Positions 1,136 to 64,000 of a DNA stretch of 64,000 nt are shown in pieces. The notes beneath the pieces are model-generated. The model saw only the letters and a list, made by a program, of their open reading frames with translations, was not told where the DNA came from and ran no database searches. Both the position numbers and the translations under genes were made by a program. The stretch is from the IMG/VR virus record IMGVR_UViG_3300025450_000020, positions 18,186 through 82,185 of that record; one strand, 5' to 3'. This stretch comes from a virus. Each line of letters starts with the position of its first letter. The stretch's first letter is position 1.

Positions 1136-2149
1136 ATGACAAAATCTAGAGATTTATCTAATTCGGGACGTAGCATTGGAACAACATCCAATCGTCCCGC
1201 TTCTCCCTTTGTTGGACAAGAGTATTATGATACAACTTTAGGTCAATTATTAAATTATACAGTTCAAGGAACTTGGGTTGCAGTTGGAACAGCTGCACCA
1301 AATGCAGTATCTGTAAACTATCTTGTAGTAGCAGGTGGCGGCGGTGGTGGTTACAACCGTGGTGGCGGAGGTGGAGCTGGTGGATTACGTTCAACCGTTA
1401 CTGCAACTGGAGGCGGAGGCTCTTTAGAATCAGCACTTCCTTTAACTATTGGCACTTCATACACAGTAACTGTAGGCGCAGGAGGTGCTGGAGCAATTCA
1501 AGTTTCTCCATATACACCAGCGCAAAATGGTTCTAACTCTGTATTAGCAACAGTTACTTCCACTGGAGGCGGCGCTGCTGGTGCTGGCACTACTGCTGGT
1601 TCTAACGGAGGCTCTGGAGGTGGCGGCGGTGGTAATGGTGCCCCAGGTGCTTCAACAGCATACGTTTCTGCTGGAACAGGAACAAACAATCAAGGTTATG
1701 CTGGAGGACAAGGCGCAAACTCTGGTGGCGGTGGCGGTGGTGCAGGTCAAGCAGGATATTCGGTATCTAGTCAAACAACAACAGTGGGCGCTAATGGAGG
1801 TAGCGGTGTAGCAGTTTCAATTACTGGTTCATCTGTAACCTATGCGGGCGGCGGAGCGGGCGGCGGAGAATCTGGCTCACCAACAGGTGGTTCAGGCGGC
1901 GGCGGAAATGGCGGAAACAATAACGGTACTAATTCTTATGGATCTGCTGGAACTGCTAATTTGGGTGGCGGTGGCGGCGGTGGTTCTGATGGTCAATCAA
2001 CAAACTATTATGGTGGAAATGGCGGCTCTGGAGTTGTTATTATTTCTGCACCTCAAGCTGCTGCATCTACAACAGGTTCACCAACTGTAACAACATCAGG
2101 TTCTAATACGATTTACAAATTCACTGGTTCAGGGAGTATAACCTTCTAA
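1136..2149 (+). CDS. Glycine-rich virion protein
   Basis: N-terminal RPASPFVGQEYYDTT motif, then Gly-rich domain (YLVVAGGGGGG...GGSGVVII). Confidence 0.75.
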   Translation: MTKSRDLSNSGRSIGTTSNRPASPFVGQEYYDTTLGQLLNYTVQGTWVAVGTAAPNAVSVNYLVVAGGGGGGYNRGGGGGAGGLRSTVTATGGGGSLESALPLTIGTSYTVTVGAGGAGAIQVSPYTPAQNGSNSVLATVTSTGGGAAGAGTTAGSNGGSGGGGGGNGAPGASTAYVSAGTGTNNQGYAGGQGANSGGGGGGAGQAGYSVSSQTTTVGANGGSGVAVSITGSSVTYAGGGAGGGESGSPTGGSGGGGNGGNNNGTNSYGSAGTANLGGGGGGGSDGQSTNYYGGNGGSGVVIISAPQAAASTTGSPTVTTSGSNTIYKFTGSGSITF

Positions 2150-59642: not shown

Positions 59643-60162
59643 CGAGTTAGAAGTAGCTGGCAAATTTGACCAGATGAATAAAGTTGTTGAGGAGTTGCTA
59701 AAAGGTAGCACTCCTGCTTCAATTGCACGTACACTTGATTTGACTCGTGTTCAAGTTGATAGTCATATTCAAACTTGGAAAGAACTTGTTCAAGATAACA
59801 GTGCTATCAAAGCCCGTGCTAGAGAAGCTTTGGCGGGAGCAGATGAGCATTACAATATGCTTATTAAAGAAGCATGGCGTACAGTAGAGCAAGCAGATAT
59901 GCAAGATGCATTAAATGTAAAAGCCCAATCTCTTAAACTTATTGCTGATATTGAAGCTAAAAGAATTGATATGTTAAACAAGGCGGGAGTCTTGGAGAAC
60001 AATGATATGGCTGATCAAATTCTAGAATCAGAAAGAAAGCAAGAAGTCCTTATCAGTATTCTTAGAGATGTAACTTCATCTTGTGAACATTGCAAGTGGG
60101 AAGTATCAAGAAGATTGTCAGAAGTCACTGGGCAAGTAGAGGCAGTTGTAATAAGTGACTGA
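59632..60162 (+). CDS. Putative terminase small subunit (HTH)
   Basis: N-terminal HTH (KGSTPASIARTLDLTRVQV), helical body, overlaps terL start. Confidence 0.55.
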   Translation: MADNELEVAGKFDQMNKVVEELLKGSTPASIARTLDLTRVQVDSHIQTWKELVQDNSAIKARAREALAGADEHYNMLIKEAWRTVEQADMQDALNVKAQSLKLIADIEAKRIDMLNKAGVLENNDMADQILESERKQEVLISILRDVTSSCEHCKWEVSRRLSEVTGQVEAVVISD

Positions 60163-61996
60163 TTTTAATGTATTTTTAGATGCATTACAAGGTGATGAAT
60201 TTGATGAAACTCCAGCAACTTTGGAGCAATTTGTAACAGATAAAAAGTATTTGGGCCTTCCGCCATTGTCTGAATTACAATATACAATGATTAAAGCATC
60301 CACTCAAATCTACAAACGTGAAACATTACACAATATATATGGTGAAGTTGAAGGCGAAAAGATTTGGAAACAAACATGTAATGAAGTAATCCTGCAGCTG
60401 GGCAAGGGTTCTGGAAAAGACTATACATCTACTATTGCTTGTGCATATATGGTGCATTTGCTTTTATGTCTTGCAGATCCCGCCAGATATTTTGGTAAGC
60501 CACCAGGCGATGCTATTGATATTATTAACATTGCTATTAACGCTATTCAGGCTAACCGAGTTTTCTTTAAAGGATTTAATCAGCGTATTGAAAAGTCACC
60601 GTGGTTTCAGGGAAGATATGTCGCTAAAGCAAACATGGTTGAGTTTGATAAATCAGTTACAGTTCACTCAGGTCACTCAGAGCGTGAAGCATGGGAAGGT
60701 TATAACGTTCTTGTAGTTATTCTTGATGAGATCTCAGGATTTGAATTGCAATCAACTTCAGGTCATGAGCAAGCTAAAACTGCATCATCAATTTATAAGA
60801 TGTATCGTGCATCTGTCAACTCTCGTTTTCCAGACTTTGGAAAAGTAATTCTACTTTCATTCCCACGTTTTAAAAATGACTATATTCAGCAAAGATACAA
60901 CGAAGTTGTGGCGGAAAAGGAAACTGTTATTCGTCATAATAAATTTAAAGTAGATCCCGATCTTCCTGATGGAACTGATGGTAATGAATTTGAAATTGAA
61001 TGGGAAGAAGACCATATTGTTTCTTATAAAGTACCTAGGGTATATGCATTAAAGAGACCAACTTGGGATATTAACCCGACCCGTAAGATTGAAGATTTTA
61101 CAATTGACTTTTATACAGATCCAACAGATGCATTGTCTCGTTTTGCATGTATGCCACCAGACGCAACGGATGCATTCTTTAAAAATCGCTTAGTAATTGA
61201 AAAAGCATTTAGCAATCCTAAATTAAATGTTGATTCATATGGAAGATTTGATGATGATTTTGTTCCAAAAGAAGATGTTAAGTATTTTATGCATGTTGAC
61301 TTGGCACAAAAACATGACCATTGTGCAGTAGCATTAGCCCACGTTGACGGCTGGGTAACCATGAAGATTGGTGAAAATTTTAAGCAAGCAGCACCTAGAA
61401 TTGTAGTTGATGCAGTCAGATATTGGACACCAACAGCTTCTAAATCAGTTGATTTTACAGAAGTAAAAGATTATATTACAAGTGTGCGGGATAAAGGATT
61501 TAATCTTAAACTTGTTACATTTGACCGCTGGAACTCACACGATATGATGCAACAACTTGGTGTTCATGGTATTAAAACAGAAATTTTATCTGTAGCAAAA
61601 AAACATTATGAAGATATGTCTCTTACTTTAACTGAAGAGAGATTGCATGGTCCACATATTCAATTGTTGATTGATGAATTGCTTCAGCTACGTATTATGA
61701 AGGACAAGGTAGACCACCCTAGAAAAGGATCTAAAGACCTCTCAGACGCCGTTTGTGGAGCTGTATTCAATGCTATATCCTTGACACCACCAGATCAAGA
61801 TAAAGAAGTAGAAATCTATACTTATTCTGGTGTATTTGCGGGGGAATTGGCACAATTAAAGGCGGAATCGGATGCAAGAATGAAGAATACAATCCGTATG
61901 CCTGAAAGAAAAACAATGCCACAAGATATTAGAGATTTCTTTGATGATGAAGACGGGGAATACAAAGATATAGTTGACAACTTCAGAATACTATAG
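60155..61996 (+). CDS. terL: Terminase large subunit
   Basis: GKGSGKD Walker A, VILDE Walker B, HVDLAQKHD, FDRWNS, DHP.KGSKDLSDA nuclease motifs. Confidence 0.9.
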   Translation: MTDFNVFLDALQGDEFDETPATLEQFVTDKKYLGLPPLSELQYTMIKASTQIYKRETLHNIYGEVEGEKIWKQTCNEVILQLGKGSGKDYTSTIACAYMVHLLLCLADPARYFGKPPGDAIDIINIAINAIQANRVFFKGFNQRIEKSPWFQGRYVAKANMVEFDKSVTVHSGHSEREAWEGYNVLVVILDEISGFELQSTSGHEQAKTASSIYKMYRASVNSRFPDFGKVILLSFPRFKNDYIQQRYNEVVAEKETVIRHNKFKVDPDLPDGTDGNEFEIEWEEDHIVSYKVPRVYALKRPTWDINPTRKIEDFTIDFYTDPTDALSRFACMPPDATDAFFKNRLVIEKAFSNPKLNVDSYGRFDDDFVPKEDVKYFMHVDLAQKHDHCAVALAHVDGWVTMKIGENFKQAAPRIVVDAVRYWTPTASKSVDFTEVKDYITSVRDKGFNLKLVTFDRWNSHDMMQQLGVHGIKTEILSVAKKHYEDMSLTLTEERLHGPHIQLLIDELLQLRIMKDKVDHPRKGSKDLSDAVCGAVFNAISLTPPDQDKEVEIYTYSGVFAGELAQLKAESDARMKNTIRMPERKTMPQDIRDFFDDEDGEYKDIVDNFRIL

Positions 61997-62726: not shown

Positions 62727-63128
62727 ATGGAATGCGGAACTTATTCAGGATATATAACCCACGGCAAAAACAAGGAAAAACCTTGCAACGAGTGCAGGCT
62801 GGCAGCAAATAAGTATAGAAGAGAAAAAAGAAAATCGGATAATGAAAAGCTTGGGTATGACCCAAGAAGGTTTAGTAGGCATCATATAACAAAAGAGTAT
62901 TATGACAATATGATGTCAAAGCATGACGGAAAATGTTGGATTTGCAAAAAAGCAGAAGCTGTACATATAGACCATGACCATAATTGTTGTGAAGGCGGGT
63001 GGTCTTGTGGAAAATGTATAAGGGGTGTATTATGCAGTAATTGTAATACAGCAATAGGTCTTTTAAAAGACGATATAAATCTTTTAAAAGAAACAATTAA
63101 ATATTTAAAACAACTGACAGTATCCTAG
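62727..63128 (+). CDS. Endonuclease VII-like (His-Me finger) homing endonuclease
   Basis: CWIC...HIDHDHNCC...CIRGVLCSNCNTAIG; N-terminal CGTYSGY..H..PC..C. Confidence 0.85.
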   Translation: MECGTYSGYITHGKNKEKPCNECRLAANKYRREKRKSDNEKLGYDPRRFSRHHITKEYYDNMMSKHDGKCWICKKAEAVHIDHDHNCCEGGWSCGKCIRGVLCSNCNTAIGLLKDDINLLKETIKYLKQLTVS

Positions 63129-63347: not shown

Positions 63348-63420
63348 GCTCCTCTAGCCCAGCGGTAGAGGCATATCACTTAAAATGATAAAAGCGTTGG
63401 TTCGAATCCAACGAGGAGCA
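63348..63420 (+). tRNA. tRNA-Leu(TAA), short variable arm
   Basis: GCTCCTC/GAGGAGC; TATCA-CT TAA AA-TGATA; 5-nt variable loop; A73. Confidence 0.85.
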
Positions 63421-63423
63421 CTA

Positions 63424-63500
63424 GGTTATAGGTGGCACTTACTTAGGATGTTATAGTTACGTATACAAACTAACTGGGCAATCGCTCACCACCTATAACC
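63424..63500 (+). ncRNA. Putative structured non-tRNA RNA in tRNA array
   Basis: Perfect 12-bp closing stem GGTTATAGGTGG/CCACCTATAACC, internal hairpins, 3-nt spacers to the flanking tRNAs. Confidence 0.55.
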
Positions 63501-63503
63501 CCT

Positions 63504-63574
63504 GCGGATGTTGCATATTGGTAGTGCCTCTGCCTTCCAAGCAGAAGGGGTGAGTTCGATTCTCATCATCCGCT
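63504..63574 (+). tRNA. tRNA-Gly(TCC)
   Basis: GCGGATG/CATCCGC; TCTGC-CT TCC AA-GCAGA. Confidence 0.9.
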
Positions 63575-63577
63575 CTC

Positions 63578-63841: not shown

Positions 63842-64000
63842 ATGACAGATGCACATAAGCAAACATTAAATCTTCATTTAATTACATCAATTCCAGATCA
63901 TGCTCCACGAAAAAATGATCCATATTACAAATATTTTATACAGGCAAAAGCTCGTATAAAAAAGACGGGAATGTGGAAGTGTATAATTGATGATGATTTA
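63842..64000 (+). CDS. Hypothetical protein, 3'-truncated
   Basis: ATG 63842 after TATAAT; open to the window end (MTDAHKQTLNLHLITSIPDHAPRKNDPYY...). Confidence 0.55.
   Translation, partial: MTDAHKQTLNLHLITSIPDHAPRKNDPYYKYFIQAKARIKKTGMWKCIIDDDL

What the first reader, a model, noticed from the sequence alone, without database searches (positions are those of the whole stretch)
63424..63500. tRNA-sized structured RNA that is not a tRNA, sitting in a tRNA slot
Seen: 77 nt between tRNA-Leu(TAA) and tRNA-Gly, with the same 3-nt spacers (CTA, CCT) that separate neighbouring tRNAs. Its ends form a perfect 12-bp stem (the length of acceptor plus T stems). Inside are TGGGC-AATC-GCTCA stacked on that stem, a TAGTT/AACTA (or AGTTA/TAACT) hairpin, and an unpaired CACTTACTTAGGATG segment that could pseudoknot (TTAG/CTAA). 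There is no TTCRA loop, D-loop or U-tail. Inference: processing of the flanking tRNAs would release it as a discrete small RNA, possibly an undescribed class (tRNA/Y-RNA mimic, decoy or antitoxin against host defence, or processing element).
Basis: partly seen in the sequence, partly recalled or inferred. Interest (0 to 1): 0.7.

Follow-up and report, generated by a model that had tools for sequence, protein, structure and literature searches.

The report
Phage small RNA antisense to 23S
The 77-base gap between two phage tRNA genes encodes a short member of a conserved, apparently undescribed family of phage small RNAs whose unchanging core is the mirror-image complement of helix 69 of bacterial 23S ribosomal RNA, so the phage probably pairs an RNA with the host's large ribosomal subunit RNA, which no experiment has yet tested.

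Summary
Window 63424-63500 is a 77-nt non-tRNA element with a perfect 12-bp terminal stem, between tRNA-Leu(taa) and tRNA-Gly. It matches nothing in Rfam.

It is a short form of a family of 77-138 nt RNAs in uncultured phages. The terminal stem covaries at 12 of 12 pairs. Of 43 distinct members, 30 start 0-2 nt after a tRNA. Of 16 members without an upstream tRNA, 15 start 4-9 nt after a -10-like box.

The invariant core (window 63442-63461) is antisense to E. coli 23S rRNA 1909-1929, which is helix 69 plus its 3' flank: 19 Watson-Crick pairs, one U.G and one bulge. The best antisense hit lies there in 42 of 46 members. Other phages carry the same 21-mer as a hairpin after their capsid gene.

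Best reading: a tRNA-operon-processed RNA that base-pairs with host large-subunit rRNA. Pairing and effect are inferred, not shown. A second complementarity (23S ~1960-2008) did not beat controls.

I found no paper describing this. This scan noted the same idea before on other DNA.

The parts
63348..63421 (+). tRNA-Leu(taa), upstream neighbour
   Evidence: ARAGORN; Rfam tRNA 65 bits
63424..63500 (+). the 77-nt small RNA (short form of the family)
   Evidence: covariance model R1 scores it 38.5 bits, E 1.5e-6, full length; identical copies in 7 other viral contigs
63424..63435 (+). P1 5' arm (12 nt)
   Evidence: perfect pairing with 63489-63500; covariation
63436..63442 (+). single-stranded joiner CACUUAC (nt 13-19)
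   Evidence: mean unpaired probability 0.98
63442..63461 (+). core antisense to 23S rRNA 1909-1929 (helix 69 loop, its 3' strand and flank); element nt 19-38
   Evidence: alignment of the reverse complement to E. coli rrlH: 19 of 21 columns identical, 1 gap; score 14.5 against a maximum of 12.5 in 920 shuffles; duplex -30.2 kcal/mol against a shuffle mean of -9.5
63456..63461 (+). apical loop GUUACG (nt 33-38), complement of 23S 1909-1914
   Evidence: unpaired probability 0.95; fold
63443..63473 (+). P2/P2a hairpin that partly masks the core (UUAG 63443-63446 pairs with CUAA 63470-63473)
   Evidence: MFE fold; the equivalent hairpin in relatives shows some covariation (UAUA/UAUA to UGUA/UACA in L062 and L075)
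63475..63488 (+). P4 hairpin UGGGC-AAUC-GCUCA stacked on P1
   Evidence: kept with other loops in short-form variants L118, L166 and L189
63489..63500 (+). P1 3' arm
63501..63503 (+). CCT spacer; a pyrimidine tail is typical of the family
   Evidence: C at +1 in 34 of 43 members, a pyrimidine at +1 and at +2 in 42 of 43
63504..63575 (+). tRNA-Gly(tcc), downstream neighbour

Best explanation
The element is a gene for a small non-coding RNA on the + strand. It is the short (77-nt) form of a conserved family of phage RNAs.

Shown:
- The RNA is co-oriented with the tRNAs and spaced like one.
- In other phages the same RNA has its own sigma-70-like promoter, placed so that transcription would start at the first base of the terminal stem.
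- The 11-15 bp terminal stem (12 bp in 26 of 43 members) is kept by compensatory changes.
- The family's invariant bases form a roughly 20-nt complement of 23S rRNA helix 69 and its 3' flank.

Inferred:
- The RNA is cut out when RNase P and the 3' tRNA-processing enzymes mature its neighbours.
- The stem plus a short pyrimidine tail protects its ends.
- The exposed loop GUUACG and the 5' joiner make first contact with the complementary helix 69 loop, on nascent 23S rRNA or on free 50S subunits.
- Pairing can then spread to about 20 bp.
- This would keep helix 69 from forming its bridge to the 30S subunit, or create a double strand open to RNase III. Either way the phage would act on host ribosome function or ribosome production.
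For: Strand and gene-like nature:
- 15 of 16 members without an upstream tRNA have a TAnnnT box ending 4-9 nt before the stem. Many also have a TTGACA-like box 17-18 nt further up. The figure is 0 of 30 for members that follow a tRNA.
- Two members (L060, L067) end in a T-run.
- There are 15 G.U pairs inside the stems and no A.C pair inside them.
- All 41 strong model hits are on the terminase/tRNA strand.

Structure: P1 has double changes at 10 of 12 pairs with 99.2% of cells paired, and at 12 of 12 pairs with 98.7% paired. In both, 0 of 500 shuffles reach the observed covariation score.

Conservation:
- 13 invariant columns in 29 sequences all lie in nt 19-37.
- The element is present in 34 of 47 terminase-related loci that hold at least 2 kb downstream of the terminase gene.

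Complementarity:
- Window nt 19-38 against 23S 1909-1929 gives 19 of 21 identical columns with 1 gap.
- The best antisense hit falls at 1909/10-1929/32 in 42 of 46 members. Sense-strand controls score at most 9, and the highest of 920 shuffles scores 12.5 against 14.5 for the window copy.
- The duplex is -30.2 kcal/mol, against a shuffle minimum of -16.8.
- The target stretch 1900-1935 is identical in E. coli and in 6 of 6 Bacteroidota genomes sampled.
- The spacer between the two complementary blocks varies from 3 to 7 nt. RNA pairing tolerates that; a DNA protein site would not.
- Several substitutions keep a wobble pair with the target (A to G opposite U in L018, L041, L050, L062; C to U opposite G in L014).

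Independent scaffold: unrelated large phages carry the same 21-mer as a hairpin between the capsid-gene stop codon and a terminator. In L088 it is 20 of 21 identical to the antisense of 23S, ungapped.

Precedents: an antisense RNA pairs with an rRNA precursor and the duplex is cut by RNase III in H. pylori (PMC6582327, abstract read). A synthetic PNA against helix 69 inhibits E. coli growth (passages of review PMC7038079).
Against: - No expression, processing or binding data exist for any member.
- About half of the core is masked inside the RNA's own hairpin: mean unpaired probability is 0.52 for nt 19-38.
- In co-folding with a 41-nt target fragment, the dimer is only 3.8 kcal/mol better than the two monomers for the window copy. 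It is no better for L096 and L060.
- Most of 1920-1929 is buried in the mature subunit (own knowledge), so full pairing would need nascent or unfolded rRNA.
- The middle of the complement is not conserved. G24 is replaced by A or U in some clades, which breaks a pair.
- The family members are related, so 42 of 46 is one evolutionary event, not 42.
- The host is unknown, so its own 23S sequence could not be checked.
- A phage also needs ribosomes, so the benefit of blocking them is unclear.
- The rest of the RNA (P3, P4, the GUGCAG and GGAAU motifs of long forms) is conserved too and is not explained by this reading.
Confidence: 0.5

Rival explanations
1. A structured RNA whose conserved core is a binding site for a protein or small ligand (or a catalytic core). 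The helix 69 complementarity would only be a trace of descent from a captured rDNA fragment, or a coincidence.
For: Long forms have further conserved motifs and covarying hairpins outside the complement: P3, P4 and the GAGAUAGGGCAG, GUGCAG and GGAAU motifs. This level of conservation resembles riboswitches or ribozymes. The core is partly base-paired within the RNA.
Against: The invariant bases coincide with the complement. A second, unrelated scaffold keeps the same 21-mer with an even better match: 20 of 21 in L088. The 3' partner strand of the hairpin varies freely while the 5' strand and loop do not. Chance is unlikely: the highest of 920 shuffles scores 12.5 against 14.5.
Confidence: 0.2
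2. The functional transcript is the opposite strand. It would be a small mimic (decoy) of helix 69 that titrates an enzyme or toxin acting on that helix.
For: The reverse complement carries 12 contiguous bases of helix 69. The - strand also folds below shuffles (z -3.09). The conserved AA before and CC after the stem would add two G.U pairs on the - strand.
Against: Promoter-like boxes are on the + strand in 15 of 16 stand-alone members. T-runs follow the + strand stem in L060 and L067. The 15 G.U pairs inside P1 would be A.C mismatches on the - strand. The element is co-oriented with the tRNAs in all 43 members. On the - strand the helix 69 stem is not reproduced; only its closing pair is kept (sequence read).
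Confidence: 0.05
3. A DNA-level element: an rDNA-like target or recombination site, for example for the homing endonucleases that crowd this region.
For: HNH endonuclease ORFs lie next to the element in the window (62727-63128 and 63842 onward). They lie 7-28 nt downstream of it in L089, L094, L179, L147 and L181. The same 23S stretch is interrupted by 0.7-kb insertions in 3 of 21 Bacteroidota genomes. It is also a known homing-endonuclease target (recalled).
Against: Spacing between the two conserved blocks varies by 4 nt. The flanking 12-bp arms change sequence but stay complementary, which DNA sites do not need. G.U asymmetry and promoters point to an RNA.
Confidence: 0.05
4. A self-cleaving ribozyme, or a plain processing signal, that only helps mature the neighbouring tRNAs, like the HDV-like theta ribozymes next to phage tRNAs.
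For: The element starts 0-2 nt after the preceding tRNA in 30 of 43 members. Theta ribozymes sit with their cleavage site at a tRNA 3' end (PMC10879173, passages read).
Against: No Rfam ribozyme model matches at E<=10. The HDV-type P1 pairing of the 5' end with the core is not kept in distant members such as L146, L183, L181, L060 and L067 (read by eye). Thirteen of the 43 members have no upstream tRNA; 12 of those 13, like 3 further members that only the model found (15 of 16 in all), carry a promoter-like box, and 14 of the 43 have no tRNA within 400 nt downstream, so they have nothing to process.
Confidence: 0.05
5. A degenerate tRNA, or a Y-RNA-like tRNA mimic that works with a Ro protein.
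For: The 12-bp stem equals the length of the acceptor plus T stems, and the element sits in a tRNA slot. The related cultured Streptomyces phage Gilson has a 539-aa 'RNA-binding protein' gene inside its tRNA region.
Against: ARAGORN and the Rfam tRNA and YrlA models give no match. There is no TROVE domain in the own record or in 5 relatives' records (0 of 6). No homologue of the Gilson protein is found in the roughly 200 loci held at that point. Gilson itself has no copy of the motif above the control count. The stem sequence is free to vary, unlike a Ro-binding stem.
Confidence: 0.03

Closest known systems
Loop-presenting antisense RNAs of plasmids (CopA/CopT of R1, RNA I/RNA II of ColE1); own knowledge
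   Same: A small structured RNA shows part of a long complement in a hairpin loop. The complement of a target hairpin is itself a hairpin, so contact could begin as a loop-loop kiss and then spread.
   Different: Those are cis-encoded and act on an mRNA or a primer. This RNA is trans-encoded by a phage and its complement is to a functional helix of rRNA. Kissing is inferred here, not tested.
Cis-antisense RNA to the 23S-5S rRNA precursor leader of Helicobacter pylori (PMC6582327; abstract read)
   Same: An RNA pairs with an rRNA precursor, and the duplex is cut by RNase III.
   Different: That RNA is host-encoded, overlaps the leader and is perfectly complementary. This one is phage-encoded and aimed at an internal, universally conserved helix.
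Synthetic PNA against helix 69 (Kulik et al. 2017, as cited in review PMC7038079; passages read)
   Same: The same target helix. It shows that an antisense agent to helix 69 can inhibit bacterial growth.
   Different: It is man-made, short and unstructured.
Phage T4 small stable RNAs rnaC and rnaD (species 1 and 2)
   Same: They are non-tRNA stable RNAs placed 1 and 6 nt after the preceding RNA gene at the end of a phage tRNA cluster, with unknown function.
   Different: There is no sequence likeness. rnaC holds a T-arm-like hairpin, and neither T4 RNA has a long perfect stem joining its two ends. The two T4 RNAs were not compared with 23S rRNA here.
HDV-like theta ribozymes next to phage tRNAs (PMC10879173; passages read)
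   Same: A non-tRNA RNA that abuts the 3' end of a phage tRNA.
   Different: No HDV-like fold or Rfam match here. This family also occurs as stand-alone genes.
3'-UTR-derived base-pairing sRNAs that share the mRNA's terminator (CpxQ, SroC type; own knowledge)
   Same: The second scaffold found here (hairpin plus terminator after the capsid gene) has that layout.
   Different: The window's copy is released from a tRNA array and has no terminator.

Membership tests
tRNA (RF00005) | Cloverleaf with D, anticodon and T arms, detectable by ARAGORN or the Rfam model | tested here: not met
   No call in 63424-63500 by ARAGORN or by Rfam at E<=10. The 12-bp stem is continuous, so no T arm can form.
tRNA (RF00005) | 7-bp acceptor stem stacked on a 5-bp T stem (12 bp) with a 3' tail | tested here: inconclusive
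   The stem is 12 bp in 26 of 43 members and 11-15 bp overall. A pyrimidine tail follows, usually CCT. The length fits, but the helix is unbroken and no CCA is encoded.
Y RNA / YrlA (RF02553) | Match to the YrlA model (Ro-binding stem plus tRNA-like domain) | tested here: not met
   No match over the element at E<=10. The only YrlA row (15.5 bits) lies on tRNA-Gly/Thr.
Y RNA / YrlA (RF02553) | A Ro/TROVE protein gene in the same genome, usually nearby | tested here: not met
   PF05731 is absent from the own record and from 5 relatives' records (0 of 6). All are incomplete, 19-81%. tblastn with the Gilson protein found nothing in the held loci.
HDV-like / theta ribozymes | Nested double pseudoknot in which the first 6-7 nt pair with an internal strand; catalytic C before the last helix | tested here: not met
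   No Rfam HDV-family match. The candidate pairing of the 5' end with UAUAGUU holds in close relatives only and is lost where the 5' end differs (read).
RNase P-processed phage antisense RNAs (C4 of P1/P7, CI of P4; recalled) | Match to the Rfam C4 model | tested here: not met
   No match.
RNase P-processed phage antisense RNAs (C4 of P1/P7, CI of P4; recalled) | 5' end made by RNase P; loops complementary to the target RNA | not testable with these tools
   Processing cannot be tested here. A loop complementary to a target is present.
Trans-acting base-pairing antisense RNA | Conserved stretch complementary to a target, beyond chance | tested here: met
   19 of 21 columns against 23S 1909-1929. 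42 of 46 members map there. The window score of 14.5 exceeds all 920 shuffles.
Trans-acting base-pairing antisense RNA | Part of the complement accessible in the folded RNA | tested here: met
   Unpaired probability is 0.95 for nt 33-38 and 0.98 for nt 13-19, with a mean of 0.52 over the whole core.
Trans-acting base-pairing antisense RNA | Physical pairing with the target and an effect on it | not testable with these tools
   Needs experiments.
Box C/D or H/ACA guide RNAs | Conserved boxes next to the terminal stem, with the guide placed relative to them | tested here: not met
   By eye, no such boxes next to P1 in the alignments. The box motifs themselves are recalled, not taken from a tool.

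The most novel reading that the evidence does not exclude
Phages make an RNA-only ribosome effector. It would be a tRNA-sized RNA with an acceptor/T-length stem, matured like a tRNA, that clamps helix 69 of the host large subunit by base-pairing. This would block or redirect subunit joining, recycling or 50S assembly. It would be the first natural trans-acting antisense RNA against a functional centre of rRNA, and different phage lineages would have reached it on several scaffolds.
Probability: 0.3. Interest if true: 0.9.

Novelty: new variant of a known kind. Interest (0 to 1): 0.8.

Why it matters
Helix 69 forms the central bridge between the ribosomal subunits and touches tRNAs and release and recycling factors (own knowledge). 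It is identical from E. coli to Bacteroidota in the stretch concerned.

A natural RNA aimed at it would be a new way for viruses to act on host translation. It would give an unexplained class of 'extra' RNAs in phage tRNA operons a testable function. It would also be a natural counterpart of the antisense antibacterials designed against the same helix.

Because the target is universal, the idea can be tested in ordinary laboratory strains without the unknown host.

Tried and rejected
- Promoter reading of the core. The motif contains a TGnTATAGT-like string. However, it occurs once in the window, the invariant bases are TAGTTAC rather than the -10 positions, no -35 is conserved, and no single-subunit RNA polymerase (PF00940) is in the record (the control search also rang nowhere, so that negative is weak).
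- HDV-like fold, hammerhead, K-turn, tetraloop-receptor, CsrA-site, mini-ORF and C/D-box readings. All were considered by eye and dropped because the needed features vary or are missing.
- Whole-RNA duplexfold against all of 23S. It was uninformative: shuffles scored alike.
- Longest exact match alone and 12-mers across the window are not significant on their own.
- A second complementarity of the 3' half to 23S ~1955-2008, which I first saw by eye and in one alignment (L108). Per-sequence scores of 7-12 do not exceed shuffles (mean about 8.8, maxima 9-14). Only 4 of 46 members map to 1959-1976. At family level the window 1962-1973 ranks 8th of 2,893, tied with unrelated windows. I therefore do not claim it, nor the four-way-junction model I built on it.
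- P3 columns in alignment A3 were partly mis-set or misaligned: 58.8% of cells paired.
- Similarity to T4 rnaC/rnaD: none.
- Cultured phages: blastn of a long form found nothing real among 7 weak hits. Phage Gilson has no motif above control and only tRNAs in Rfam.
- Host: the one genome-contig hit is a phage-like contig binned into a Bacteroidia MAG, which is not a reliable host call. TerL is closest to Streptomyces phages at 65%.
- I did not scan metagenome contigs. I used no protein-structure tools. I could not see supplements of any paper.
Full report
OBSERVATION

The window is the last 64 kb of an 82,185-nt uncultured virus record that is 77% complete by the record's estimate. At 63424-63500 lies a 77-nt stretch whose first and last 12 nt (GGTTATAGGTGG and CCACCTATAACC) are perfectly complementary. 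It sits between tRNA-Leu(taa) at 63348-63421 and tRNA-Gly(tcc) at 63504-63575, inside an array of eight tRNA genes whose spacers are 0-5 nt.

ARAGORN calls no tRNA or tmRNA there. Rfam gives only the nine tRNAs at gathering score. It gives nothing over the element even at E<=10.

The + strand folds at -27.1 kcal/mol, z -4.80, with 0 of 200 shuffles as good. The - strand is weaker: -23.8 kcal/mol, z -3.09. The fold has the 12-bp stem (P1), a 7-nt single strand, an AU-rich hairpin with loop GUUACG closed below by UUAG/CUAA, and the hairpin UGGGC-AAUC-GCUCA stacked on P1.

A FAMILY, NOT AN ORPHAN

The element is single-copy in its own record. Cultured phages share only the tRNA parts of the array.

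Using the terminase large subunit (60155-61996) I fetched 80 related viral loci out of 596 relatives found. The identical 77-mer lies in seven other contigs. Many relatives match only nt ~10-44. Reading those places showed a longer element of about 100-138 nt. It has the same core, CTTAG..TG..TATAGTTAC, and a terminal stem of different sequence.

In 29 aligned sequences the invariant columns are C19 T20 T21 G23 T26 G27 T31 A32 G33 T34 T35 A36 C37, in element numbering. Over all loci then held I found 88 distinct sequences with the core. I classed 43 of them as 'group 1' (terminal stem score at least 10.5, length at most 140; L104 dropped by hand).

A covariance model built from 20 long forms finds the element in 41 of 81 sources at E<=4e-4, always on the terminase strand. 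It scores the window copy full-length at 38.5 bits, E 1.5e-6. The model also found members my pattern had missed: L022-24, L014/15 and L050. Among terminase loci with at least 2 kb of downstream sequence, 34 of 47 have the element. The 13 without it are mostly the most distant terminases, and one of them (L067) has a copy found by pattern only.

STRUCTURE

P1 is 12 bp in 26 of 43 members and ranges from 11 to 15 bp. It has compensatory double changes at 10 of 12 pairs in 20 sequences, with 99.2% of cells paired. In 33 distinct sequences it has them at 12 of 12 pairs, with 98.7% paired. That second alignment was fitted to the model, which favours the structure. In both, no shuffle of 500 reached the observed covariation score, and sliding the partner by 1-3 columns drops pairing to 18-48%. 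The sequences are related, so these shuffle counts are not probabilities.

Support for the inner helices is weaker:
- A hairpin around the loop GUUACA shows UAUA/UAUA changing to UGUA/UACA in L062 and L075.
- A helix joining CCUUA to UAGGG shows one A-U to G-C change (three close relatives) and one mismatch.
- P4 shows C-G to A-U changes.
- My P3 columns were partly misaligned.

The window copy and three variants (L118, L166, L189) are short forms. They lack P3 and the GAGAUAGGG stretch but keep P1, with compensated changes, as well as the core and P4. They are a maintained variant, not debris.

WHICH STRAND, AND IS IT A GENE?

Of the 43 members, 30 have a tRNA ending 0-2 nt upstream and 26 have a tRNA starting 2-10 nt downstream. 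The neighbours differ: Leu, Gln, Met, Ile or Asp before, and Gly, Gln, Ser, Thr or Pro after.

Of 16 members without an upstream tRNA, 15 have a TAnnnT box ending 4-9 nt before the first stem base. It is mostly TATAAT or TACAAT at 7-8 nt, and many have a TTGACA-like box 17-18 nt further up. The figure is 0 of 30 for members that follow a tRNA. L060 and L067 have a T-run right after the stem.

Inside the stems there are 15 G.U pairs and no A.C pair. A.C appears only in the flanking AA/CC. C follows the stem in 34 of 43 members, and the next base is a pyrimidine in 42 of 43.

All this says the + strand is transcribed and that the RNA begins at the stem. In arrays it would be freed when the neighbours are matured. 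That step is inferred.

WHAT THE CORE IS

While looking for a partner of the invariant bases I recognised the reverse complement as 23S rRNA and checked it against E. coli rrlH fetched from the genome collection. The reverse complement of window nt 19-38, CGTAACTATAAC-ATCCTAAG, aligns to 23S 1909-1929, CGTAACTATAACGGTCCTAAG. That is 19 of 21 identical columns with one gap.

In RNA terms this is 19 Watson-Crick pairs, one U.G and one bulged G. It covers the loop of helix 69, its 3' strand and the next bases. The helix name and span are from my own knowledge; the hairpin is also predicted.

With a strict local score, the best antisense hit of the 5' part falls at 1909/10-1929/32 in 42 of 46 members. 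The scores are 9-14.5. Sense-strand controls score at most 9, and 920 shuffles have mean 7.9 and maximum 12.5. The window copy scores 14.5.

The duplex between the window core and 23S 1900-1940 is -30.2 kcal/mol, against a mean of -9.5 and a minimum of -16.8 for 200 shuffled cores. The stretch 1900-1935 is identical in E. coli and in 6 of 6 Bacteroidota genomes.

Between the two complementary blocks (CCTTAGGA and TATAGTTAC) the spacer varies from 3 to 7 nt. Several substitutions keep a wobble pair with the target, while G24 to A or U in some clades does not.

In the folded window RNA the loop GUUACG (complement of 1909-1914) and the 5' joiner are open, with unpaired probabilities of 0.95 and 0.98. 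The rest of the core is masked, with a mean of 0.52.

SECOND SCAFFOLD

About 30 of the other 44 distinct sequences from the pattern scan form a different context. The rest look like chance hits inside coding sequence, which is my reading and is unverified. In this context the sequence CTTAGG(N4)TTATAGTTACG forms the 5' strand and loop of a hairpin that follows the stop codon of a capsid gene and precedes an intrinsic terminator. Twelve loci of this kind that I scanned with ARAGORN hold no tRNA.

The capsid protein is distantly related to that of Bacillus phage 0305phi8-36 (38-45% identity). In L088 the 21-mer differs from the exact antisense of 23S 1909-1929 at one base, with no gap (read). 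My pattern required TG at the position where the exact antisense has CG, so exact copies could not be returned.

Unrelated phages therefore present the same complement on another scaffold. This argues that the complement itself is what is selected.

WHAT DID NOT HOLD

By eye, the 3' half of long forms looked antisense to 23S ~1955-2008, in an order permuted relative to the first site. One alignment (L108) suggested the same.

The test failed. Per-sequence scores of 7-12 do not exceed shuffles, and only 4 of 46 members map to 1959-1976. At family level the 12-mer window 1962-1973 ranks 8th of 2,893, level with unrelated windows. I make no claim for a second site.

Co-folding shows the interaction is not a foregone conclusion. 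The dimer is 3.8 kcal/mol better than the monomers for the window copy, 4.7 for L019 and 6.5 for L182. It is no better for L096 and L060.

HOW IT MOST LIKELY WORKS

Shown:
- a conserved, structured, + strand RNA gene family in or beside phage tRNA arrays;
- an invariant core complementary to helix 69.

Inferred:
1. Release by RNase P and the 3' processing enzymes acting on the neighbours. The 12-bp stem plus pyrimidine tail resembles an acceptor/T minihelix and may itself be recognised.
2. End protection by P1.
3. First contact between the open loop and the complementary helix 69 loop, as in plasmid antisense systems.
4. Spread to about 20 bp, which needs nascent or unfolded 23S rRNA for positions beyond the loop.
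5. An effect on subunit joining, recycling or 50S assembly, or RNase III cutting of the duplex.

Precedents are an H. pylori antisense RNA that pairs with an rRNA precursor and is cut with it by RNase III (PMC6582327, abstract), and a synthetic PNA to helix 69 that inhibits E. coli growth (review PMC7038079, passages).

I put 0.9 on 'real conserved RNA family', about 0.5 on 'acts by pairing with 23S rRNA', and about 0.25 on any one downstream effect.

COMPARISON AND NOVELTY

The element is not a tRNA, a YrlA/Y RNA, an HDV-like ribozyme or a C4-type RNA by the tests listed in the membership table.

T4 rnaC and rnaD are the classical non-tRNA RNAs in a phage tRNA cluster, but they are unlike it. 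Theta ribozymes are another non-tRNA neighbour of phage tRNAs.

Seven full-text searches found no description of a phage RNA complementary to helix 69. The library lacks most subscription journals, and supplements were closed.

Earlier notes of this scan describe the same idea on other DNA. They include long forms between phage tRNA genes (e1-5979297, e1-5946329) and 3'-UTR forms. I reached the reading, before opening those notes. They are AI notes, not independent evidence.

What this window adds: the 77-nt short form, the promoter and strand evidence, the P1 statistics, and a negative test of the second site.

HOST

The host is unknown. The terminase is closest to Streptomyces phages of the Gilson type (65% identity), and gene order around the terminase is shared with Gilson. 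The one hit among 185,579 species genomes is a phage-like contig binned into a Bacteroidia MAG.

Noticed in passing
L088, L099, L103, L129, L131 and about 25 more loci (e.g. L099:2623-2760): In jumbo-like phages a hairpin sits between the capsid-gene stop codon and an intrinsic terminator. It carries a 21-mer that is nearly the exact antisense of 23S 1909-1929. The layout looks like a 3'-UTR-derived small RNA.
   Followed up: partly
L116, L159, L123, L120, L163, L104: A third context has the same antisense 20-mer followed by a terminator, in contigs with a shared upstream AGAACGTCAAG-like sequence. I did not study the gene neighbourhood.
   Followed up: no
G009:C1:178558-179399, G020:C4:3596-4395, G015: In 3 of 21 Bacteroidota genomes the 23S match is split near positions ~1917, ~1924 and ~1932. 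In G009 and G020 the gap is an insertion of about 0.7 kb; in G015 the two pieces lie on different contigs. These are probably group I introns in or next to helix 69, the same stretch that the phage RNA complements.
   Followed up: no
L201 (JBBALJ010000049.1, 23.8 kb): A contig binned into a 'Bacteroidia bacterium' MAG carries a long-form element between tRNA-Gln and tRNA-Gly. It looks like a phage contig of this family, so it may be a binning artefact or a host hint.
   Followed up: partly
window 62727-63128 and 63842-64000; L089, L094, L179, L147, L181 just after the element: HNH endonuclease ORFs repeatedly sit next to the element, or replace the downstream tRNA. This is the pattern expected of free-standing homing endonucleases that use conserved RNA genes as landing sites.
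   Followed up: no
L199 (Streptomyces phage Gilson 68830-70446): The closest cultured relative by terminase has a 539-aa 'RNA-binding protein' gene inside its scattered tRNA region. It has neither this RNA motif nor an Rfam YrlA hit in the 19.8 kb examined.
   Followed up: partly
L022:9382-9508, L014:3523-3646, L050:7805-7910: These divergent stand-alone members were found only by the covariance model. Their spacers between the two complementary blocks are up to 7 nt, and each follows a -10-like box.
   Followed up: partly
long forms, e.g. L019:5090-5201: Conserved motifs outside the complement remain unexplained: GUAAGAGU in the P3 loop, GAGAUAGGGCAG, CAUUC in the P4 loop, and GGAAU before the 3' arm.
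   Followed up: partly
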